Positions 117-28,942 of a stretch of 41,525 bases of DNA are shown piece after piece. The notes under the pieces were generated by a model that was not told where the DNA came from, searched no databases, and worked only from the letters and a program-made list of their open reading frames with translations. Position numbers and translations under genes: made by a program. Numbering within the stretch: the first letter of the stretch is position 1; every line of letters begins with the position of its first letter. The stretch lies in the IMG/VR virus record IMGVR_UViG_3300025174_001715. One strand, given 5' to 3'. The stretch is from a virus.

Positions 117-230
117 AACGAGGATTTATTGTTTCCACAAACATAACTAGTTCTGCACATAATGTAAGTGCGTTCTTTATTATTCATGGAAAGTATAAAA
201 AGATTCGTAAAACTGACGAATAAATAAAGA

Positions 231-258
231 GTTATAAGTTTAAGTTATAAGTTTAATA
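231..258. promoter_or_regulatory. 28-bp element GTTATAAGTTTAAGTTATAAGTTTAATA (tandem GTTATAAGTTTAA with palindromic TTATAA boxes), copy 1
   Basis: Exact copy at 5696-5723; first TTATAA is about 25-30 nt before ATG 261, consistent with an archaeal leaderless promoter. Confidence 0.7.
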
Positions 259-4418: not shown

Positions 4419-4774
4419 AAACGAAATCTGTAACAAATCAAGTTTATTGTTGTGAAGTATGTACTTATGAATCACCTAATAGCACAATGTTCAACACTTG
4501 CCTAGTATGTACCAAAAATTACTGTGTTTTGAATTGCAAGAGTGATTTGTATTTCATTTACAATCAAAATGTATGTAGAATATGCAAGGATAACCCAATG
4601 GTTGAAGAACTTACAGACAAGTGGCTAAAAGAATGGCGTGAGAAACTACCATTTGTTAAAAAAAGTTACCAAGACATAAGTAAGGAGGCTCTAAAATTGG
4701 ATAAGAGATTTGCAAAAGACTGGAAAGAGAATTTGGAGAAATACGAAGAAGAACACAGAGATTTAACACCATGA
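4415..4774 (+). CDS. Cys-rich zinc-finger protein
   Basis: CEVC, CLVC, CxxxC, CRIC; ATGA-coupled at both ends. Confidence 0.7.
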   Translation: MKTKSVTNQVYCCEVCTYESPNSTMFNTCLVCTKNYCVLNCKSDLYFIYNQNVCRICKDNPMVEELTDKWLKEWREKLPFVKKSYQDISKEALKLDKRFAKDWKENLEKYEEEHRDLTP

Positions 4775-5220
4775 GTACATGCAAGTCAGACAATTCTTTT
4801 TTCTTTATATTTATTCCAGTTATGGTGATGATGCTTCTCATAGTTAATCTAAGCTCAATCTCAAATAATAATGAGGATAGTTTGTTGACAGATGAACAGA
4901 AATTAGCAAAACAAAAAGTAATGGCACTGGAAAAAGAAAAGGAGTTCATCAAAAAACAAGAGGAGGCAAAATGGTGGGATGATCAGATAACCTACGTGTT
5001 AAATGAGAAACCACTTCCGATAGTTGGGATTGGCGGAATGATAATTTTTCTCACGTTAATTAAGACATCACAAATGAAAAGTGAATTTGGTATGATCTTT
5101 GGTGGTAGATGGAGATGGTTAAACTGGTTAAACATGCCATCAATCATTGTAATTTTTACAGGAATGATATATCTTGCATGGTTAGCTGGGTATGTTAATC
5201 TTACAGGTGCAGAAATATGA
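4771..5220 (+). CDS. Multi-pass membrane protein
   Basis: Three hydrophobic segments. Confidence 0.7.
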   Translation: MSTCKSDNSFFFIFIPVMVMMLLIVNLSSISNNNEDSLLTDEQKLAKQKVMALEKEKEFIKKQEEAKWWDDQITYVLNEKPLPIVGIGGMIIFLTLIKTSQMKSEFGMIFGGRWRWLNWLNMPSIIVIFTGMIYLAWLAGYVNLTGAEI

Positions 5221-5665: not shown

Positions 5666-5695
5666 TAGGTTATAGAAATTATGGGAGGTAATAAA

Positions 5696-5723
5696 GTTAT
5701 AAGTTTAAGTTATAAGTTTAATA
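5696..5723. promoter_or_regulatory. 28-bp element, copy 2, upstream of the TIGR array
   Basis: Identical to 231-258. Confidence 0.7.
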
Positions 5724-5746: not shown

Positions 5747-7639
5747 ATGACAGGGGGAACGAGTCAAAACAAAATTGAAGAACGAAATCATAATCCGAGG
5801 CAAAACGATATTGAATTACAAAAAGATCGTCCGAGTCAGATTCCACTTGAAGAACACGCCAACTATCCGAGTCATTTTCATGTTGAAAAACACTACAAGA
5901 ATCCGAGTCATCTAGTAATTGAAAAACAGGAAAACGATACGAGCCATGATGGTTTTGAAGAACACATAAATGATTCGAGTCATAAAAAGCATGAAAAACA
6001 TAATACAGTTACGAGTCACAAACCACATGAAAAACAAGATTTGATTCCGAGTCACATAAATATTGAAGAACAAAAATTAGATCCGAGTCAATCAATATAT
6101 GAAACACATGATAAACTTCCGAGTCATAGGTTTGTTGAAAAACAAAGTAAAGATCCGAGTCAATGTAGAATTGAAGAACATAATCAGTATCCGAGCCAAA
6201 TGGAAGATGAAAAACGGAAAAAGCTTTCGAGCCAATCAATAATTGAAAAACATAAGATAGATTCGAGCCAAAAGAATGTTGAAATACAACATGTCAATTC
6301 GAGTCATGTAGACCTTGAAATTCAAAAGACGAATCCGAGTCACGATCCATATGAAAAACATGGTGTCATTACGAGTCAATATTTCGTTGAAGAACAAATC
6401 AATTATCCGAGTCATACCAACTTTGTAGAACAAAGTAACAATCCGAGTCAGTATTGGTTTGTAGAACAGAACAAAGATTCGAGTCAATTCATGCTTGAAG
6501 AACAGGAAAAAAATCCGAGTCAAATAATAATTGGAAAACAATTTTCATATCCGAGTCAATACTTGATTGAAATACAAAGAGTTGATACGAGTCAAAATAA
6601 AATTGAAGAACAAGCTAATAATACGAGTCACCAACTACATGAAGAACATGGTGTAATTCCGAGCCACACACCAGATGAAGAACATCGAATAGTTTCGAGT
6701 CACAGACCAATTGAAAAACATAATTATGATACGAGTCAAACCATATTTGAAATACAGAACGGTTATCCGAGTCATAGAACAGATGAAAAACAAAAGAATA
6801 ATTCGAGTCATTCATTTATTGAAAAACATAAATATAATTCGAGTCAAAGTTTAATTGGAATACATGACAAAGATCCGAGTCCTATCAAAATTGAAACACA
6901 TGGCAGGAATACGAGTCACAGTTTAATTGAAAAACAAAGCAGGGATACGAGTCACAGTGTAAATGAAAACCAAAACACTCTTGCGAGTCAAAAGAAAATT
7001 GAAGAACATGCGGAACTTACGAGTCTAAAGCATCTTGAAGAACAGAACAACTATACGAGTCATTTTCCAATTGGAGAACAATATTGGCATCCGAGTTATT
7101 TCTTAATTGAAAAATATGGCAAAGATACGAGTCAAAGTTTACTTGTAGAACATAAAAAAAATCCGAGTCATTGTACGATTGAAGAACAAAATCATAATCC
7201 GAGTCAAAATTTCTTTGAAGAACACTATGATAATACGAGTCACATAATAATTGAAAAACATGTTTCATATCCGAGTCAGTATTCTCTTGAAGAACAAGTC
7301 ATGAATTCGAGTCAAAGTTTATTTGGAATACAAAATGAACATACGAGTCATATGATGCTTGAAAAACAGGATGAGCATACGAGTCATCATGTAAATGAAA
7401 AACAAATGAAAGATCCGAGCCAAAACATTATTGAAGAACAAACTAATCATTCGAGTCAATTTCCATTTGAAGAACAATATGCGAATTCGAGTCATAGTAT
7501 AAATGAAAAACAAATAGTTGTTCCGAGTCATACAACCATTGAAAAACATATAGAATATTCGAGTCATCAAAAATTTGAAAAACAAGACACGCATACTAGT
7601 CCTAATCGCTTTGAAAAACAAATGGATGATACGAAATGA
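5747..7639 (+). CDS. Stop-free reading frame spanning the TIGR array (12-aa periodic PSH/Q-xxx-EE/KH/Q-xxx); protein status uncertain
   Basis: ORF track gives 5681-7639; ATG 5747 lies downstream of the promoter element; stop overlaps the tasA ATG. Confidence 0.45.
   Translation: MTGGTSQNKIEERNHNPRQNDIELQKDRPSQIPLEEHANYPSHFHVEKHYKNPSHLVIEKQENDTSHDGFEEHINDSSHKKHEKHNTVTSHKPHEKQDLIPSHINIEEQKLDPSQSIYETHDKLPSHRFVEKQSKDPSQCRIEEHNQYPSQMEDEKRKKLSSQSIIEKHKIDSSQKNVEIQHVNSSHVDLEIQKTNPSHDPYEKHGVITSQYFVEEQINYPSHTNFVEQSNNPSQYWFVEQNKDSSQFMLEEQEKNPSQIIIGKQFSYPSQYLIEIQRVDTSQNKIEEQANNTSHQLHEEHGVIPSHTPDEEHRIVSSHRPIEKHNYDTSQTIFEIQNGYPSHRTDEKQKNNSSHSFIEKHKYNSSQSLIGIHDKDPSPIKIETHGRNTSHSLIEKQSRDTSHSVNENQNTLASQKKIEEHAELTSLKHLEEQNNYTSHFPIGEQYWHPSYFLIEKYGKDTSQSLLVEHKKNPSHCTIEEQNHNPSQNFFEEHYDNTSHIIIEKHVSYPSQYSLEEQVMNSSQSLFGIQNEHTSHMMLEKQDEHTSHHVNEKQMKDPSQNIIEEQTNHSSQFPFEEQYANSSHSINEKQIVVPSHTTIEKHIEYSSHQKFEKQDTHTSPNRFEKQMDDTK
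5758..7638 (+). repeat. TIGR (tandem interspaced guide RNA) dual-repeat array, 52 units of 36 nt
   Basis: Exact 36-nt period (edge repeats at 5758+36n): TNCGAGTCA-N9-TGAARAACA-N9. Constraint is at nucleotide level: invariant NCG and AG(T/C) codons. Last units are degenerate. Directly upstream of a Nop-fold gene. Confidence 0.93.
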
Positions 7640-8538
7640 GTAATTCAAAAAAATCAAAGAACATAATGCGAGTGGAATATCAAGAACCACAACTTATTCC
7701 ACTTCCAATTATGCGAGGCTTGGTAGAAATTTTCTATGACTTTCAAGGACAGCGAATAGCTACTTTCAATAATGTATTGATGAATTGCGAACGAAATGGA
7801 ATCTCCGAAGAAGACTTGGAGAAAAAATATGGAGTAAAATCACTCATTGACGAGGCAAAAACTTTTGAAGATAAGATTAAGAAAAGACTCGATTCAGAAG
7901 TTGTTAATTATAAAATCTATGACAAATACTTGCAACATATCCAGGGTATAGGTTCAATTCTTTCCGCAGGATTAGTTGCTAACATTGGTGACATCGCAAA
8001 GTTTGATACTATATCAAAACTATGGATGTATGCAGGTTTAGGGTTTAACAAGTTTTGTCCAGAGTGTGAGCATCCTACTTTTGTAAACGTAGAATATGAA
8101 GATCGTGAAGGCAATATAACTAAAGGAAAGAAATTAAAACCATTTGAAAATTGTCCAGAATGTAATCACAAAACAAACCCAATAATTCAAAAGCGAACCA
8201 AAGGCTACCAAGATAATTGGAGTCCAAGATTAAGAGTTTTATGCTGGAAGATCGGTTCAAGTTTTGTAAAGCAAAAAGCAGCCAAGTCAGGCTATAGAAG
8301 AATTTATGAAAGTTTCAGACGAGATGATACAGAATTTCATCCAACAAAAGTGAAGGAAAATGGCAAGACAAAATACAATGACGGTCACATGTATAACCGA
8401 GCTGTAAGAAAAACTGTAAAGATTTTCATGAGTCACCTATGGATTACATGGAGAGAGATGGAAGGCTTGGAAGTAAAAGCACCCTATGTAGAAAAAGTTT
8501 TAGGCCACGATATAATTAAGCCATTCAAGGACAGATGA
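7636..8538 (+). CDS. tasA: TIGR-associated TasA-like protein (Nop/IS110 C-terminal RNA-binding fold, no RuvC/HNH), with Cys4 insertion
   Basis: LVEIFYDFQGQRI coiled coil; YLQHIQGIGSILSAGLVANIGDIAKF…SKLWMYAGLG; KRTKG…NWSPRL…WKIGSSFVK; GHMYNRAVRKTVKIFMSHLW…WREMEGL…PY…LGH; adjacent to the array. Confidence 0.88.
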   Translation: MSNSKKSKNIMRVEYQEPQLIPLPIMRGLVEIFYDFQGQRIATFNNVLMNCERNGISEEDLEKKYGVKSLIDEAKTFEDKIKKRLDSEVVNYKIYDKYLQHIQGIGSILSAGLVANIGDIAKFDTISKLWMYAGLGFNKFCPECEHPTFVNVEYEDREGNITKGKKLKPFENCPECNHKTNPIIQKRTKGYQDNWSPRLRVLCWKIGSSFVKQKAAKSGYRRIYESFRRDDTEFHPTKVKENGKTKYNDGHMYNRAVRKTVKIFMSHLWITWREMEGLEVKAPYVEKVLGHDIIKPFKDR

Positions 8539-23666: not shown

Positions 23667-23960
23667 TTGTCATACGAAGAATCTGGGGTGGATGCACCAC
23701 TTAACCCAAATAGACCTAAATCAGCAATTGCTTTACCACCATCCCCATCAGCAGCATTTGATACTTTAGTTGATCAGTCATATACACAGCCAAGACCAGA
23801 AAGGGAAATAATGTCTGACATTGAATCCAGTTTTTCATTTTCTGATACAGATTATCGAGGACAGCATGGAAGAAATGTTCAGGAATATTTTGGTATAAAA
23901 CAAAAGAAAACTTTTGGCCCTCAAAATTTACCACATCGTAAAAAGAGGTTTGGTTATTAA
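23667..23960 (+). CDS. Disordered hypothetical protein
   Basis: TTG start 35 nt after the promoter; TAATG-coupled to the giant ORF. Confidence 0.7.
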   Translation: MSYEESGVDAPLNPNRPKSAIALPPSPSAAFDTLVDQSYTQPRPEREIMSDIESSFSFSDTDYRGQHGRNVQEYFGIKQKKTFGPQNLPHRKKRFGY

Positions 23961-26900
23961 TGGCACAAGGAAGATCAGCTCCAAAGAAAGCTACACCTTC
24001 AAAACCATCTGCACCTTCAAAACCATCTGCACCTTCAAAACCATCTGCACCAGCACCAAAACCTTCTGCACCTTCAAGAACTGAACGTGGTCCTTCTACA
24101 CCAGCACCAGCTCCAAAAGCTGCACCAGCACCATCTGCACCAGCACCAAAACCTTCACCAGCACCAGCTCCAAAACCTGTATCCGCACCAGCAAAACCTG
24201 CACCAACACCAGTTTCAGTTTCAAGAACTGAAAGAGGATTTGCTGCTGCACCACCTTCAGCTCCAAAAGCTGCACCAGTTATTTCAATTCCAAAAGCAGC
24301 AGTTCCTAAAGTGCCAACATCACAACAGGCGTATGTTAGTGCTGCTGCACCTTCACCTCCACCAAAAGCTGCACCAGCTCCTTCAAGAACTGATAGAGGG
24401 CCAACAATAAGACCAACAATAATTTCACCCGAAGCTTTAGTAGAAGACGAATCTTTTGCACAACAAGCATTTGCAGAAGAACCATCTTATGAGCAGCCAT
24501 CATATCCACCAGGAACAACTCAATTCATAGAAGAACGAGAAGCAGTAACTCAATTCAGAGAAGAACGAGAAGCTGAAGAACCATTTACACCATCAATGGA
24601 AATTGATACTAGACAACCAGAAGTTGATCGAGCAATTATTTATGAACCAATTGCACCACCACCTCCACCTCCCCCACCAAAAAAAGAAGCTAAAAAATTA
24701 CCAGAACAACAATTTGCAATCGGTGCTGTAGATACTGAAGGGAAAGTAACAATATTACGAACATCAGGAGAGGTTGGAAAAGTTTCAGTTGCAACAGCAG
24801 AGAAGTTAGCAGCAGCAGGAAAAATTGCATCAGGACAAGATTATGATATTTTCCAAACCATTACAACAAAAGTAAAAGGTGCAAAACCTGGACCTGTAGG
24901 TGGCATACTGTCAGTTGGACCAGAAAAGCCATTGGTGTCACCTACACGATTAGAAATCGGTGAGCCACCAAAATCAAAAGAACAATTGCGAGAAGAAACT
25001 TTAGCATTTAGAGCTGGCATATCTCCAAACATAAGTCTATTTGATATATCACAAGCTAGATTACGAGAAGATGAAATTTATGGGCCAGGAGAAGTAATTG
25101 GCAAGCGTGATCTAAAAACAGGAGAGTTCGTACCATTAGCAGGTATAGAAAAAGAAGCTGTTGATATTATCAGACGAGAACAAGATATTGCAAGAGTAGC
25201 AAACGCATTACAAGCACAAAGATTCATGGACATTACAGGTGCAAAGTCTGGTATAGATGTTTTAGCAAAAGAGGAAGAACTTCAAAAGAAAGGCATACAA
25301 CAAATTATTGAACCACAGTTTACTTTTGGTGCATATCAAGCTCCGTCAGATGTTCCATACTTTGAGGAAAGACCAAGAATAGGAGGAGTTGATACGCCTG
25401 AAAAATTGGCAGCAATTAAAGAAAGAATTGAGAAAACACCACGAGCCTCACTTCAGGAAACATTAGGTTTTGGAGTTCCAGTAGTAACAACTGAAACTAT
25501 TGTTGAAACTGAATTCATACCAAAAGCAGGAGTAAGTAAAGCCCAACAACAGGAATATTTCCCACCTGTTTCAATCCCTGAAGACAAATTACCTACATCA
25601 ATAGAGAAAACAAAGACTGGAACAGCAGAAAAGTTACAACAGTTTGGTTTTGGTATTAGTCCAGAATTTCTAAAAGGTGTTACACAGCAAGAAATTAAAT
25701 ATGATGAACCAGGAAAAATTGCAAAGCCAGTACCACTTTCAGCCGAAGCAAAAGAATATCGTGCAACACTCAGCCTTGGTGATAGACAGATGTTGGAACA
25801 ATTAGAGGGCTATCCACGTGCAGGAATACCAAAAGCACAGGTTGATATTTTATCCCCAGAAGAAGCTTCAAGACGAGATGTATTTGGTGAAGAATCATAC
25901 TTAAAACCTACTTCACCATTTGGTTCGGTAGTACAAGGAATACTTACACCAGCACCACTACATCTTGCAACTGGCATTGAACGAGCAACAGGTGTTCAGA
26001 TTGTTCCAAAACAGGTAAGTGGATTCTTTACAGATATTGGTTCTGCATTTTCAGCAGACATTGAGAATGAAGCAATTGCAGTTGCAAATGTTCAAAAATT
26101 AGCATCAGGGCAAGCTCAACTAGAATACAACAGAACACCACAAGAAAGAGTATTTGGTGGAACAATTGAAAACGCATTTGGTTCTGCATTTCCAACTCCA
26201 CTGATCAGTGAACCAGATACACAGGGAATGGTTGATGCACAGTTAAAAAGTGGACAAATTGTAAAGGTGTCACAAACAAAAGCACAAGAACTTGCAAGTG
26301 AAGGCAGACTAGAAACAGTTGGTGGCGGTGGTGCAGCACAGTTCAAGGCAACAGAGTCACAGATTTTCAGTAATGAGTTAACATCATTTTTACAAAGACC
26401 AGGCTTAACGATTGGTAGTACAGCCGAATTTGTAGGATCTGCAATACTTGGTGGAAAGGTAATATCTGTTTCAGCAAAAGCAGTTTCAAAAGGAGTCAAA
26501 GCACTTAGAGGTATACCAGCAGCACCAGCAGCAGTAAGGGCTGCTGAAAAACCATTTGCACAAATTAGCCAAGAATTTATTCCAACAACTGAACCTACCA
26601 GTACAATTACAGGAAAATTATTAAAAGGATTTGGCTCAATTACAGAAAAAGTTTCAAAGACAAAGGAGAAAGTTACACAGTATTCAGCAATAACTGGACA
26701 GCCGATAGGAAAAACAAGAGAAATCTCAACAGTTGTAACAGGAAAAGAGATTGAAGATTTAAGAAAATATAACTTACAAAAAGGAATTAAAATTTCCTAC
26801 GATAGAGCAAAAGACTTAATCATTGAATCAAGAAAAAGAAAAGTTCCATTAGGTGAAGCATTAGCTAAACCATCTGATAAAGAGATTCAAGCATTTGCCA

Positions 26901-28942
26901 TTGATAACCGAATTTCCATCGAACAAGCAAAAACAGAATTAGCAAAAACAAAACTAGCTGATCGCTATGCCGATTTAGGTTTTAAAGTTGAGAAAAAAAT
27001 TACAAAGAAGGGAGTAGTAAATAAAATAGTTCCAGATGATGTTGCAAAACAATATGAGGCATTTGAAAATGAATTGGTAAAACAAAATAAAAAAGCATTG
27101 GAAGCAAGTGGAAGAAATATTCTAAGTCCAGAGCAAACAGCCGAGTCGGTTAAAATGGCAGCAAGCAAGGCTGCTGGTAAAGGTGTTAAAACAGAAGAAG
27201 AACTAGCAGAGGAATTTTATCACCAAGCAGGACATAAAAAAGAGTTCATTCCAGAATATTTACGAAAGGAATTATCATTAGGCGAAGGTGTGTATGGCAG
27301 AGCTCCAGGAACACTTGGTTCTCCAAGAATCAAAGGTTCTCCTGAACTAGCAATTAAAGCTACAACCGATGAACTTTTAAGAATTAGAATAAAAGAACTA
27401 ACAGGCGAACCATTAACAAAGTTTGAAGTGACAGCATTAGAATCGGCTGCATTTGAAGCTCCTAAAAAAACAGCAACACAACAAGCTGGTAGAGTTGGTG
27501 GAATTATCAGAGGAGATGATATTTATCGATTTGGTCAAAGAGCTGATGAAGGACTAGAAGGAGTAGGAAAATCTACAACAAAACGACCACCACCTGTAAG
27601 CCCAGCAGGAGGACAGCAAGTTAGACAAATCACAAAAGAACAAATTGCTAACTATGCAAAAATTCGTGGAGTTTCAAAAGAAAGTGCAGAAACAATTCTG
27701 ACAAAACAAGCTGAACGAGAAGCAGGCCGAACAACAGGTAGAGTTGCAGACATCTTTGGTGGACAACCAGATACAAGTACAAGGACATTATTACAAATGC
27801 AACGAGGCATACTTGATCCCGATACTGGATTAGATATTTTGCGTGGTGGCAGACAAGCAGGACAAGGAATAGAAGATTTTGGAGAAACTTTCTTAACACA
27901 ATCAGGACGATTAAGACAAGTATCAAAAGAAACTACAACATTACTTACACCAAAAGGAACATTAAAACAAGTTCCAACTGATGATCTTTCAAGAATCACA
28001 AGCGTTGGTGGACAGTTTAAGAGAGTTAAAAGTTTAGGACCAGCAGATGACTTTTCACGAATATCAAAAATTGCAGATGAATCATTATCAGGTGAATCAC
28101 TTCTTGGCAGAAGGGCTGTATCAAGAGGTGGACAGATTTTTGAAGAACTTGGAGAACAAGGTGGCAAACGAGGTGCAAGAACAGGAAGCCAAATATTTGA
28201 CGATTTAGGAGAGGCCAGTCTGAAAACTACATCAAAAGCAGATGATTTCACTCCATCTCTAAAAACTGTAACACCAAAGAAGGGAGTAAGGCCACCATCA
28301 TTAATACCAAAAATTGCTGTAGGTGGAGCTTCAAAGATACCTTTAGGTCTTGGGGAGGCAGACATATTTGGACAAGGAAGTAAAAGTGATCCCTTTGGTG
28401 CAATAATTCCAAAAGTCGGTCAGGATGTTTCACAAATTCCAGGAAGTATAACAGATATTTTTACAGGTACTAAACAAAAAGAAAAAGGCGGTCTACGAGG
28501 TGGAGTATTGCAAGAAACATTTTATGAACAAGCACAAGGACAACGAGGAAAACAAAAATTGAAAACCCAAACACCAACTACACAACCAACAGCATATGAT
28601 CAGATGTTTAGTCCAATTCAGTATCAACAATTCCAATATCCAGAAGGAGGAAAGCCAGCAGAACCAGGGGGAAGACGAGGGCCAATATTTGATTACTTTG
28701 GTGATAGCGAAAGATCAGGTGACGCATCATCAAGTGCAAGGAAGTTTTATCGAGTATTTGATGTTGGTCGTGATGTAAAAGGTAGGCCAACTCCATTTGG
28801 CAGAGTGTCACGTGGTTTAGGTGTCCAAGTACAAAGTTCACGCGAGATCGGTGAAATTGAAGATGTTTTAGGACCAAGAAAAAGAGGTAAAAAGCCTATT
28901 CAAGAAACATACTTTAATATTGACTTTCAGAATTATTTCTAG
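23960..28942 (+). CDS. 1660-aa low-complexity protein (Pro/Ala/Lys-rich N-terminus), probable virion or genome-delivery protein
   Basis: Long uninterrupted ORF in a late-promoter unit; no recognisable enzymatic motif or signal peptide. Confidence 0.8.
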   Translation: MAQGRSAPKKATPSKPSAPSKPSAPSKPSAPAPKPSAPSRTERGPSTPAPAPKAAPAPSAPAPKPSPAPAPKPVSAPAKPAPTPVSVSRTERGFAAAPPSAPKAAPVISIPKAAVPKVPTSQQAYVSAAAPSPPPKAAPAPSRTDRGPTIRPTIISPEALVEDESFAQQAFAEEPSYEQPSYPPGTTQFIEEREAVTQFREEREAEEPFTPSMEIDTRQPEVDRAIIYEPIAPPPPPPPPKKEAKKLPEQQFAIGAVDTEGKVTILRTSGEVGKVSVATAEKLAAAGKIASGQDYDIFQTITTKVKGAKPGPVGGILSVGPEKPLVSPTRLEIGEPPKSKEQLREETLAFRAGISPNISLFDISQARLREDEIYGPGEVIGKRDLKTGEFVPLAGIEKEAVDIIRREQDIARVANALQAQRFMDITGAKSGIDVLAKEEELQKKGIQQIIEPQFTFGAYQAPSDVPYFEERPRIGGVDTPEKLAAIKERIEKTPRASLQETLGFGVPVVTTETIVETEFIPKAGVSKAQQQEYFPPVSIPEDKLPTSIEKTKTGTAEKLQQFGFGISPEFLKGVTQQEIKYDEPGKIAKPVPLSAEAKEYRATLSLGDRQMLEQLEGYPRAGIPKAQVDILSPEEASRRDVFGEESYLKPTSPFGSVVQGILTPAPLHLATGIERATGVQIVPKQVSGFFTDIGSAFSADIENEAIAVANVQKLASGQAQLEYNRTPQERVFGGTIENAFGSAFPTPLISEPDTQGMVDAQLKSGQIVKVSQTKAQELASEGRLETVGGGGAAQFKATESQIFSNELTSFLQRPGLTIGSTAEFVGSAILGGKVISVSAKAVSKGVKALRGIPAAPAAVRAAEKPFAQISQEFIPTTEPTSTITGKLLKGFGSITEKVSKTKEKVTQYSAITGQPIGKTREISTVVTGKEIEDLRKYNLQKGIKISYDRAKDLIIESRKRKVPLGEALAKPSDKEIQAFAIDNRISIEQAKTELAKTKLADRYADLGFKVEKKITKKGVVNKIVPDDVAKQYEAFENELVKQNKKALEASGRNILSPEQTAESVKMAASKAAGKGVKTEEELAEEFYHQAGHKKEFIPEYLRKELSLGEGVYGRAPGTLGSPRIKGSPELAIKATTDELLRIRIKELTGEPLTKFEVTALESAAFEAPKKTATQQAGRVGGIIRGDDIYRFGQRADEGLEGVGKSTTKRPPPVSPAGGQQVRQITKEQIANYAKIRGVSKESAETILTKQAEREAGRTTGRVADIFGGQPDTSTRTLLQMQRGILDPDTGLDILRGGRQAGQGIEDFGETFLTQSGRLRQVSKETTTLLTPKGTLKQVPTDDLSRITSVGGQFKRVKSLGPADDFSRISKIADESLSGESLLGRRAVSRGGQIFEELGEQGGKRGARTGSQIFDDLGEASLKTTSKADDFTPSLKTVTPKKGVRPPSLIPKIAVGGASKIPLGLGEADIFGQGSKSDPFGAIIPKVGQDVSQIPGSITDIFTGTKQKEKGGLRGGVLQETFYEQAQGQRGKQKLKTQTPTTQPTAYDQMFSPIQYQQFQYPEGGKPAEPGGRRGPIFDYFGDSERSGDASSSARKFYRVFDVGRDVKGRPTPFGRVSRGLGVQVQSSREIGEIEDVLGPRKRGKKPIQETYFNIDFQNYF
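23994..24050 (+). repeat. 18-bp tandem repeat CACCTTCAAAACCATCTG x3 (PSKPSA)
   Basis: Direct reading. Confidence 0.85.

What the first reader, a model, noticed from the sequence alone, without database searches (positions are those of the whole stretch)
5767..7629. Last base of spacer A covaries with last base of spacer B in 48 of 52 units
Seen (manual count): A9/B9 is T/A in 39 units and A/T in 9 (units starting 5974, 6010, 6082, 6190, 6334, 6622, 6658, 6946, 7486). One unit is T/G and three are mismatched (6766, 6982, 7378). A9 is never G or C. Positions 1 and 8, spot-checked, show no such pairing. This fixes the functional unit as edge-A-loop-B. Inference: either an intramolecular base pair next to the box C/D-like motifs, both spacers reading one shared central base pair (like the IS110 bridge-RNA core), or a required TT/AA centre in targets.
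Basis: partly seen in the sequence, partly recalled or inferred. Interest (0 to 1): 0.75.

Follow-up and report, generated by a model that had tools for sequence, protein, structure and literature searches.

The report
Paired spacer ends in TIGR guide array
The repeat array is a 52-unit TIGR guide-RNA array next to its TasA protein gene, and the last bases of the two spacers in each guide really are Watson-Crick partners, here and in 39 related arrays, which suggests the two half-guides read one shared central base pair, a rule the founding paper on these systems did not see.

Summary
A9/B9 is T/A in 39 units, A/T in 9, T/G in 1, A/A in 2 and T/T in 1 (Fisher p = 1.4e-7). It is the strongest of all 630 column pairs.

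The region is a dual-repeat TIGR array of 52 units of 36 nt. It lies directly upstream of a nuclease-less Tas gene (tasA, 7636-8538) on a virus-like contig linked to Nitrosopumilaceae.

The covariation is a property of the nucleic acid, not of a protein. It recurs in 39 independent related arrays that are not open reading frames (248 Watson-Crick of 471 units, against 146 expected, z = 11.5). There it uses all four pairs, including C/G and G/C. It is confined to the two spacers that flank one loop.

The best reading (about 0.4) is that the two 9-nt spacers, whose 3' ends meet at the target centre, overlap by one base pair, giving a 17-bp target. A direct RNA-RNA pair or a scar of spacer genesis remain possible. 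A required AA/TT centre is unlikely.

The whole array is one open frame of about 630-650 codons, ending in ATGA at the tasA start. Five variants keep it open (0 in-frame stops in 126 distinct units, only 3n indels), yet the amino acids are not conserved.

Verdict: a new variant of a known kind.

The parts
5694..5720 (+). Two tandem copies of AAGTTATAAGTTTA, a TATA-rich, promoter-like element just upstream of the array. The same pair precedes ORF 261-1253.
   Evidence: 7 matches in the window against 1.4 expected. The promoter role is inferred, not shown.
5747..7639 (+). Open reading frame through the whole array, from ATG 5747 to TGA 7637-7639 (the frame is open from 5669; the first ATG is at 5681). 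It reads as a 12-residue repeat [NDYH][PST]S[QH]xx[ILVF]E[EK][QH]xx.
   Evidence: 0 in-frame stops against 10.8-18.3 expected; the frame is conserved in L014, L015, L066 and L078
5758..7629 (+). Dual-repeat TIGR array of 52 units of 36 nt: edge TNCGAGTCA, spacer A 9 nt, loop TGAARAACA, spacer B 9 nt
   Evidence: same strand as tasA and adjacent to it
5974..6009 (+). Example of a swapped unit (A9 = A at 5991, B9 = T at 6009). The other swapped units start at 6010, 6082, 6190, 6334, 6622, 6658, 6946 and 7486.
6766..6801 (+). Mismatched unit (A/A). The same unit, with identical spacers, is T/A in L014 and L015, so this is a recent single mutation.
6982..7017 (+). Mismatched unit (T/T)
7378..7413 (+). 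Mismatched unit (A/A)
5794..5829 (+). Wobble unit (T/G)
7630..7639 (+). Truncated terminal edge (TACGA) running into ATGA, where the array-ORF stop (TGA) overlaps the tasA start (ATG 7636)
   Evidence: identical in all five close relatives
7636..8538 (+). tasA: a 300-aa Tas protein with coiled coil, Nop domain and an inserted CxxC...CxxC zinc-ribbon-like beta domain, and no nuclease domain. Y284 and H291 at the C-terminus are invariant.

Best explanation
SHOWN: The region is a dual-repeat TIGR array, a string of 36-nt dual-spacer guide RNAs, belonging to a nuclease-less TasA of an archaeal-virus-like element. Within each guide, the last base of spacer A and the last base of spacer B are held Watson-Crick complementary. 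This constraint acts on the nucleic acid. It is shared by related arrays that are not translated, it uses all four pairs there, and it links only the two spacers that flank one loop.

INFERRED (most likely mechanism): In solved Tas complexes, spacer A pairs with one DNA strand and spacer B with the other, and their 3' ends meet at the centre of the target. In this TasA clade the two half-sites overlap by one base pair. A9 reads the central base on one strand and B9 reads its partner on the other. The target is therefore 17 bp rather than 18 bp. This resembles the shared core read by both guide arms of IS110 bridge RNAs. In the window's own clade the central pair is restricted to A-T, and the T/A orientation is favoured about 3.6 to 1.

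Second layer, SHOWN: The same DNA is kept as one open frame of about 630-650 codons that ends in ATGA at the tasA start. Only openness is under selection, not the amino-acid sequence.

INFERRED from that: ribosomes read through the array so that tasA, which has no room for a promoter of its own, is expressed by coupling.
For: 1. Covariation in the window: 48 of 52 pairs, p = 1.4e-7, top mutual-information pair.
2. It holds in 76 further distinct units of close relatives (64 of 76 Watson-Crick, against 43.4 expected).
3. It holds in 39 independent arrays next to Tas proteins 39-56% identical to this one. A shuffle within each array gives 248 Watson-Crick against 146.1 +/- 8.8, z = 11.5. The pairs include C/G 41 and G/C 11. 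The controls A1-B1, Alast-B1, A1-Blast, A-1/B-2 and A-2/B-1 are all at expectation.
4. Most of those arrays have 35-37-nt units and are full of stops, so coding cannot be the cause.
5. The graded pattern is that of selection for pairing: Watson-Crick enriched, G-U at expectation, A-C depleted (z = -3.3), other combinations strongly depleted (z = -9.2).
6. The pair stays anchored at the spacer 3' ends when spacers are 8 or 10 nt long. It is absent across the edge repeat (z = -1.5).
7. Geometry: TasR leaves 8-nt 3' overhangs with cuts at spacer position 5, and the unwinding junction sits at the first spacer nucleotide next to box C. This places A9 and B9 at the target centre (my derivation). TasR tolerates half-site gaps of 0-2 bp, so the centre is flexible.
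8. Family membership: the Tas profile matches TaTasR 9MTY at E = 2.9e-42 and TasH at E = 4e-17. The AF2 model's best folds are TasR, TasH and then IS621. The known box C/D pair (edge position 7 with position 2 of the next edge; loop position 2 with position 7) is Watson-Crick or G-U in 447 of 471 units of relatives.
9. ORF layer: 0 in-frame stops in 126 distinct units, against 61 and 63 in the other two frames and 18.9 in column shuffles. The only indels are +3, +6 and -3. The ATGA overlap is conserved. Substitutions are spread evenly over codon positions (85/70/86). There is no terminator between the array and tasA.
Against: 1. No natural target was found, so the 17-bp spacing is not shown.
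2. Only about 53% of units in distant arrays are Watson-Crick, so the rule is a preference there.
3. Homologous units show many single changes (67) and few clean compensatory switches (2).
4. An overlap model does not by itself explain why G-C is absent from 126 units of the window's clade. It also does not explain why pyrimidine at A9 with purine at B9 is favoured (174 against 74 in distant arrays, 86 against 24 in the close clade).
5. Faure et al. 2025 state that spacers A and B show no obvious covariation and are unlikely to overlap. An overlap of -1 was not tested in what I read.
6. The placement of A9 and B9 at the target centre is my derivation from the text, not from coordinates.
Confidence: 0.4

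Rival explanations
1. Direct RNA-RNA base pair. A9 and B9 pair with each other inside the tigRNA or its precursor, as a protein-supported solitary pair like the box C/D pairs. The heteroduplexes would then be 8 bp each, and the pair would help folding, processing or loading.
For: Solitary protein-supported pairs are a known feature of tigRNAs (the box D2-box C1 pair). The Watson-Crick > G-U > A-C > other gradient fits RNA pairing. The pair is anchored next to the box D motifs whatever the spacer length. In the window's clade the canonical box C/D pairs are degenerate (loop G.A in 122 of 126 units; edge mostly pyrimidine-pyrimidine) while A9-B9 is strongest (87%), which could be compensation.
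Against: In the solved complexes the edge and loop motifs are held by the two different Nop domains, and each 9-bp heteroduplex spans between them along the coiled coil. A9 (next to the loop) and B9 (next to the edge) should therefore be about one helix length apart (my inference). All 9 nt of each spacer pair with DNA in TasR and PlTasA. The neighbouring positions give no helix (A8 and B8 show no purine excess). About 35% of units in distant arrays have neither a Watson-Crick nor a G-U pair.
Confidence: 0.2
2. Scar of spacer genesis. New units are made from one DNA fragment of odd length, or from a centre cut with a 1-nt stagger and filled in. Both half-spacers then inherit the central base pair. 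The complementarity has little function and decays by mutation.
For: How TIGR arrays grow is unknown. Complementarity is strongest in the window's clade and weaker in other arrays. Single-step mismatches are polymorphic between near-identical units, and single changes far outnumber compensatory ones.
Against: Neutral decay should give G-U-type and A-C-type mismatches alike, but A-C is depleted and G-U is not. No adaptation gene lies next to the locus. Even if true, the natural targets would still be 17 bp, so this rival overlaps with the best explanation rather than replacing it.
Confidence: 0.15
3. Targets are 18 bp with abutting half-sites and must carry a particular central step (AA/TT).
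For: In the window's clade only A and T occur at A9 and B9. With abutting half-sites the centre would read AA (39 units) or TT (9 units).
Against: Related arrays use C/G and G/C as well. The rule would have to be 'any homodinucleotide at the centre', for which there is no known reading mechanism. No sequence motif requirement was found for TasR or TasH.
Confidence: 0.05
4. By-product of protein coding. A9 and B9 are second codon positions of repeat residues 7 and 1, so the rule would mean 'exactly one hydrophobic residue (xTT) and one polar residue (xAT) per 12-residue repeat' of a real repeat protein.
For: The array is a conserved open frame. T/A gives I/L/V/F plus N/D/Y/H, and A/T gives the reverse. 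A9 and B9 are never or almost never G or C in this clade.
Against: The same complementarity, with G-C pairs, holds in 39 arrays that are not open frames. There is no amino-acid-level purifying selection in the spacers (85/70/86 substitutions over codon positions). Third codon positions of the repeat codons are invariant, while a first position (E2) is the most variable column. A second covariation involves a synonymous site: AGT or AGC at edge position 7 against position 2 of the next edge, with C followed by T in 16 of 17 cases. The spacer codons score +0.08 bit per codon, against +0.59 for the window's genes. No family or homologue exists for the product.
Confidence: 0.03

Closest known systems
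Dual-repeat TIGR-TasA systems (Faure et al. 2025, Science, PMC12045711; for example the Flavonifractor plautii FpTIGR-TasA)
   Same: The 36-nt units have the order edge, spacer A, loop, spacer B, with 9-nt spacers. The array is on the same strand as a nuclease-less Nop-domain Tas gene and adjacent to it. Repeats start with U(G) and end with (C)CA. Position 7 of the 5' edge covaries with position 2 of the 3' edge. The element is viral or mobile.
   Different: Spacer 3' ends covary as Watson-Crick pairs, whereas the paper reports no obvious A/B covariation and assumes abutting 18-bp sites. The 52 units compare with a usual 5-15. In this clade the box C/D pair is degenerate (loop UG...ACA, edge U-N...UCA). 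The array is upstream of tasA with no gap and forms one open frame. This TasA carries a zinc-ribbon-like insert.
TaTasR-tigRNA-DNA complex (PDB 9MTY)
   Same: It is the best sequence match (E = 2.9e-42) and the best fold match (Foldseek E = 1.9e-12, 31% identity) to this TasA. It is a dimer that uses one tigRNA, with each spacer pairing to one strand.
   Different: TasR has an N-terminal RuvC nuclease, which this protein lacks. TasR pairs 9+9 nt on an 18-bp site and tolerates gaps of 0 to +2 bp. An overlap was not reported.
Intragenic (dual-coding) TIGR arrays (Xu et al. 2026, bioRxiv 10.64898/2026.09.09.750476; for example BlTasA)
   Same: Guide units lie in an open reading frame without breaking it. 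The authors propose a link between tigRNA maturation and Tas translation.
   Different: Those arrays are mostly stem-loop arrays lying inside the tas coding sequence. Here a 52-unit dual-repeat array forms its own ORF in a different frame from tasA, joined to it only by an ATGA stop/start overlap.
IS110-family bridge RNA (IS621, PDB 8WT6)
   Same: The RNA-binding domain is homologous (Pfam Transposase_20 hit; the fold match ranks third). Two guide segments pair with opposite DNA strands and both cover a shared central core.
   Different: There is no DEDD/RuvC or serine recombinase domain, no donor loop and no transposon ends. The shared core here would be 1 bp and is inferred, not shown.
Archaeal box C/D sRNA-Nop5 RNP
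   Same: A Nop-domain dimer on a coiled coil holds a bipartite guide between two box C/D-type motifs.
   Different: There are no RUGAUGA/CUGA K-turn boxes, no L7Ae or fibrillarin, the target is DNA and there is no Rfam match.

Membership tests
TIGR-Tas (dual-repeat) | Adjacent gene encodes a Tas protein (coiled-coil dimerisation domain plus Nop domain) homologous to characterised Tas proteins | tested here: met
   The family profile matches TaTasR 9MTY at E = 2.9e-42 and TasH at E = 4.4e-17. The AF2 model (pLDDT 85.6) has TasR and TasH as its top Foldseek hits. Pfam Transposase_20 is above its cut-off.
TIGR-Tas (dual-repeat) | Array of two distinct alternating 8-12-nt repeats separated by spacers of about 9 nt, with a 36-nt unit, on the tas strand | tested here: met
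   52 units of exactly 36 nt, made of a 9-nt edge, 9-nt spacer, 9-nt loop and 9-nt spacer. The array ends 6 nt before tasA.
TIGR-Tas (dual-repeat) | Both repeats start with box D (UG) and end with box C (CCA), and D2 pairs with C1 with covariation | tested here: inconclusive
   In relatives the feature is met: edge position 7 with position 2 of the next edge is Watson-Crick or G-U in 447 of 471 units, and loop G-C is seen in 391. In the window's clade the loop is UG...ACA (G.A in 122 of 126). Edge position 7 and position 2 of the next edge covary strongly (z = 16.8), but mostly as U.C, U-A, C.U or U.U.
TIGR-Tas (dual-repeat) | Transcript processed into 36-nt tigRNAs by a conserved Y/H dyad on a C-terminal loop of the Nop domain | tested here: inconclusive
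   Y284 and H291 are invariant in 24 homologues and lie in a C-terminal loop of low pLDDT. That they are the catalytic dyad is inferred from Xu et al.. No RNA data could be obtained.
TIGR-Tas, subtype TasA | No HNH or RuvC nuclease domain | tested here: met
   The protein is 300 aa. The only Pfam hit is Transposase_20. The model shows an N-terminal coiled coil, the Nop domain and a beta insert with four invariant Cys residues.
TIGR-Tas (published targeting rule) | Spacers A and B are independent and read abutting 9+9 bp on opposite strands | tested here: not met
   The independence half of the rule was tested and fails: A9 and B9 are complementary far above chance here and in 39 related arrays. 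Whether the half-sites abut or overlap was not measured, because no natural target was found.
IS110 bridge-RNA recombinase | DEDD RuvC-like domain plus Tnp catalytic domain, and a two-loop bridge RNA with target and donor guides | tested here: not met
   Only the Transposase_20/Nop-like part matches. The fold match to IS621 is weaker than the matches to Tas proteins. The RNA is a tandem array of 36-nt units.
Protein-coding tandem-repeat gene | Purifying selection on the encoded amino acids (excess of synonymous change; conserved residues, not conserved bases) | tested here: not met
   Substitutions are even over codon positions (85/70/86). Third positions of the repeat codons are invariant, and a first position is the most variable column. 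Only openness is conserved.
CRISPR array | One repeat of 24-48 nt alternating with spacers of similar size, with cas genes nearby | tested here: not met
   There are two different 9-nt repeats and 9-nt spacers. No cas family was found among the neighbours.

The most novel reading that the evidence does not exclude
In a whole clade of virus-borne TasA systems, the two half-guides of each tigRNA read one shared central base pair, giving a 17-bp target with a 1-bp core. This is the same logic as the core of IS110 bridge RNAs, so these systems would be a living intermediate between TIGR guides and bridge RNAs. In the window's branch the guide array is also translated as a leader ORF that controls tasA expression.
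Probability: 0.35. Interest if true: 0.72.

Novelty: new variant of a known kind. Interest (0 to 1): 0.6.

Why it matters
TIGR-Tas systems are being developed as compact, PAM-free genome tools, and their targeting rule is currently stated as two independent, abutting 9-nt half-sites.

A clade in which the spacer 3' ends are tied together would change three things:
- how natural targets are searched for (17-mers with a shared centre);
- how guides for these TasA proteins should be designed;
- how TIGR relates to the core-sharing guides of IS110 bridge RNAs.

It also gives a handle on how dual spacers arise, which is an open problem.

The conserved open frame through a 52-unit dual-repeat array extends the recent observation of intragenic guides. 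Here the ORF is stand-alone and array-only, and selection acts on openness alone. This points to translation being used to regulate guide and effector production.

Tried and rejected
1. Protein-coding explanation of the covariation: tested and rejected (see rival explanations).
2. Natural targets: I searched all 17- and 18-mer arrangements of 126 close-clade units, and then split half-sites with gaps of 0-6 for 482 units, against 526 kb of the window plus fetched loci with arrays masked. The hits did not differ from scrambled-order controls.
3. One conserved unit was searched in 401 genomes of the family of the Nitrosopumilaceae MAG. It gave 5 hits, none with the expected centre. This was not pursued further.
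4. An exact array pattern searched in viral contigs gave 0 hits. The single protein query in viral contigs gave 0 confirmed hits. The alignment query then worked.
6. No whole genome is held for the window.
8. The array-ORF product has no Pfam or PHROG family and no homologue in the protein collection at E <= 1e-5.
9. There is no Rfam family in the region.
10. Gordonia phage Spooky, a distant Tas-like hit, has no separate dual-repeat array near the gene.
11. A 2-bp overlap register (A9-B8, A8-B9) shows no signal.
12. A short helix around A9-B9 has no support from the neighbouring positions.
Full report
**What is there**

Positions 5758-7629 hold 52 head-to-tail units of exactly 36 nt with no indel. 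Each unit has a 9-nt edge repeat (TNCGAGTCA), a 9-nt variable stretch (spacer A), a 9-nt loop repeat (TGAARAACA) and a second 9-nt variable stretch (spacer B). This is the unit plan of TIGR arrays as defined by Faure et al. 2025 (PMC12045711).

The gene that starts 6 nt after the array (7636-8538, 300 aa) is a Tas protein.
- It passes the Pfam Transposase_20 cut-off.
- A profile of it and 23 homologues matches the solved TaTasR (PDB 9MTY, E = 2.9e-42) and TasH (E = 4.4e-17).
- Its AlphaFold model (pLDDT 85.6) finds TasR, TasH and then IS621 recombinase as best folds.
- It has no nuclease domain, so it is a TasA. It carries a beta insert with four invariant cysteines.

Context:
- All larger ORFs of the window but two lie on one strand, and few have families.
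- Near-identical loci occur in marine metagenomes and on a contig binned as a Nitrosopumilaceae archaeon (L078).
- No whole genome is held for the window.
- I read the element as a virus or other mobile element of marine ammonia-oxidising archaea. That host assignment is an inference.

**The observation**

- Watson-Crick pairs number 48, against 34.4 expected from the column totals (Fisher p = 1.4e-7).
- A9-B9 has the highest mutual information of all 630 column pairs (z = 14.9).
- B9 of one unit and A9 of the next unit are unrelated.

The whole array lies in one open frame (open from 5669, ATG at 5681 and 5747, TGA at 7637-7639). Its stop overlaps the tasA start as ATGA.

In that frame A9 and B9 are second codon positions.
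- T/A gives a hydrophobic residue at repeat position 7 and a polar residue at position 1.
- A/T gives the reverse.
- The rule could therefore be a protein rule.

The frame is real.
- It has 0 stops, against 10.8 expected after column shuffles and 18.3 after within-spacer shuffles. Stop triplets are common in the other two registers of the spacers.
- Four more variants of the array (L014, L015/L066, L078 and a fragment, L013) differ by many units, yet all keep one frame of 585-676 codons that ends in the same ATGA.
- Pooling 126 distinct units gives 0 in-frame stops, against 61 and 63 in the other frames.
- The only length changes are +3, +6 and -3 nt. Related arrays elsewhere change by single bases in about a quarter of their units.

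**Why the covariation is not a protein effect**

1. Arrays were parsed next to Tas proteins 39-56% identical to this one, from 11 viral contigs, metagenome contigs and one further MAG.
   - Most of them lie downstream of tas, have 35-37-nt units and are broken by stops in every frame.
   - The last bases of the two spacers are nevertheless complementary in 248 of 471 distinct units, against 146.1 +/- 8.8 when B is shuffled within each array (z = 11.5).
   - All four pairs are used (T/A, A/T, C/G, G/C).
   - Seven other position pairs are at or near expectation; the largest, A-3/B-3 at z = 2.3 (p = 0.01), does not survive correction for eight tests.
   - Single arrays show it on their own: L018 28 of 41 (12.3 expected), L010 22 of 31 (9.6 expected), L079 18 of 27 (9.9 expected).
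2. Between orthologous units of the close variants, spacer substitutions are spread evenly over codon positions (85/70/86).
   - The third positions of the repeat codons are invariant.
   - A first codon position (E2) is the most variable column.
   - This is the opposite of amino-acid selection.
3. A second covariation involves a synonymous site. When edge position 7 is C (AGC rather than AGT serine), position 2 of the next edge is T.
   - This holds in 6 of 6 cases in the window and in 16 of 17 cases in the clade (z = 16.8).
   - There is no relation to position 2 of the same edge.
   - In the relatives the same two positions are Watson-Crick or G-U in 447 of 471 units. This is the published box C/box D pair that joins the two half-edges of a processed tigRNA.

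RNA-level rules therefore act on this array, and they confirm the phase edge-A-loop-B.

**What kind of rule it is**

- Against within-array shuffles, Watson-Crick pairs are enriched (z = +11.7), G-U is at expectation, A-C is depleted (z = -3.3) and other combinations are strongly depleted (z = -9.2). This is a pairing gradient, not neutral decay of a scar.
- The pair stays at the 3' ends when a spacer is 8 or 10 nt long.
- It is absent across the edge repeat.
- Mismatched units are young. Unit 6766 (A/A) is T/A in L014 and L015 with otherwise identical spacers, and unit 7018 (T/A) is T/T in L078 and L015.
- Clean compensatory switches are rare (2) next to single changes (67), so selection is not absolute.
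- Two features remain unexplained. In the window's clade G-C pairs are absent (0 of 126 units). Everywhere, a pyrimidine at A9 with a purine at B9 is favoured (86 against 24, and 174 against 74).

**Mechanism**

- Published work shows that spacer A pairs with one strand and spacer B with the adjacent stretch of the other strand.
- TasR cuts at spacer position 5 and leaves 8-nt 3' overhangs.
- The unwinding junctions sit at the first spacer nucleotide next to box C.
- Only the arrangement 5'-B1..B9 followed by the complement of A9..A1-3' gives 3' overhangs (my derivation). A9 and B9 therefore meet at the centre of the target.

Complementary A9 and B9 then mean one of two things. Either both read the same central base pair (a 17-bp site), or the centre must be a homodinucleotide (an 18-bp site). 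The second has no plausible reader once G/C pairs are included.

A direct A9-B9 RNA pair is the other option. However, the edge and loop motifs are held by different Nop domains, with each 9-bp heteroduplex lying between them. That should keep A9 and B9 about a helix length apart (inference).

TasR tolerates gaps of 0-2 bp between half-sites, so the centre is mechanically loose and an overlap of one is a small step.

My estimates are: overlap about 0.4, direct pair about 0.2, genesis scar about 0.15 (it would also imply 17-bp natural targets), homodinucleotide centre about 0.05, and protein by-product about 0.03.

**The open frame**

Only openness is conserved, so I infer that translation itself is what matters.
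- The array abuts tasA with no terminator and no space for a promoter.
- The stop and start overlap.
- A TATA-rich tandem motif lies about 25-50 nt upstream of ATG 5747.

Ribosomes reading through the array would deliver tasA expression by coupling. TasA's cleavage of the edges would then cut its own message, which would act as a feedback loop (speculation).

The next relatives with arrays abutting or near tas (L016, L017, L018) are also 73-91% open, but that is within what chance could give across about 50 arrays. More distant upstream arrays, separated from tas by 400-540 nt, are not open.

A stand-alone ORF made of a 52-unit dual-repeat array, in another frame than tasA, is a variant of that.

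**Known or new**

- Faure et al. write that spacers A and B show no obvious covariation and are therefore unlikely to overlap.
- None of the four primary TIGR papers I searched mentions a pairing of the spacer ends.
- The locus is a member of a known kind, TIGR-TasA.
- The spacer-end rule and its likely meaning are a new variant of the targeting rule, so far resting on sequence statistics only.

**Limits**

- No natural target was found.
- No RNA data could be had.
- My array parser was tuned to this clade's repeats, so I cannot say how far beyond it the rule extends.

Noticed in passing
window 229-255 and 5692-5720: The same tandem pair of AAGTTATAAGTTTA precedes both ORF 261-1253 (SPFH/Band 7 protein) and the TIGR array. 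There are 7 matches in the window against 1.4 expected. It is probably a shared promoter or operator of the element.
   Followed up: partly
window 5758-7629, edge position 7 against position 2 of the next edge: In this clade the canonical Watson-Crick box C/D pair is replaced. The loop pair is G.A (122 of 126 units). The edge pair is U.C, U-A, U.U or C.U, and never C.C or C.A. The pair still covaries (z = 16.8) although it is mostly non-canonical.
   Followed up: partly
L018:1306-1760, 4742-5000, 7158-8320: One metagenome contig carries three arrays around a single tas gene. The downstream array is open for 981 nt across two different repeat registers.
   Followed up: partly
L001, L005, L008, L027, L037, L052 (arrays): Several spacer pairs are shared, with a few changes, between arrays of different viral contigs. 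Examples are GGGGGCATT / AAAAAGGCGA, TCATACAGC / AAGACGGTG and CCCATCATG / AAAGAAGAT. This suggests conserved targets.
   Followed up: no
L009:2392 unit; sites about 300-320 nt into the tas gene in 18 loci (for example L005:8320, L010:8317): One spacer pair matches 15 of 16 bases of a conserved stretch inside the tas genes of many related contigs, with no base between the half-sites. Counted by distinct hits this is at chance level, but guides aimed at rival tas genes would be interesting.
   Followed up: partly
window 23960-28942: A 1660-aa ORF whose start is built of short tandem repeats (periods 6, 18 and 33-57 nt at 23994-24212). It has no family apart from a weak DUF5817 C-terminal hit.
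   Followed up: no
window 7636-8538, residues about 137-190: This TasA clade has a beta insert with invariant C141, C144, C173 and C176 (zinc-ribbon-like). It may sit near the wedge-loop insertion of other Tas proteins, but I did not align its position. It could change the geometry at the target centre.
   Followed up: partly
L012:6491-6868 (Microcystis phage Mvi-JY20): A cultured cyanophage has a small array (5 parsed units) behind a distant Tas homologue. There the bases before both box D motifs are fixed as A/A, so the complementarity rule does not hold in that array.
   Followed up: partly
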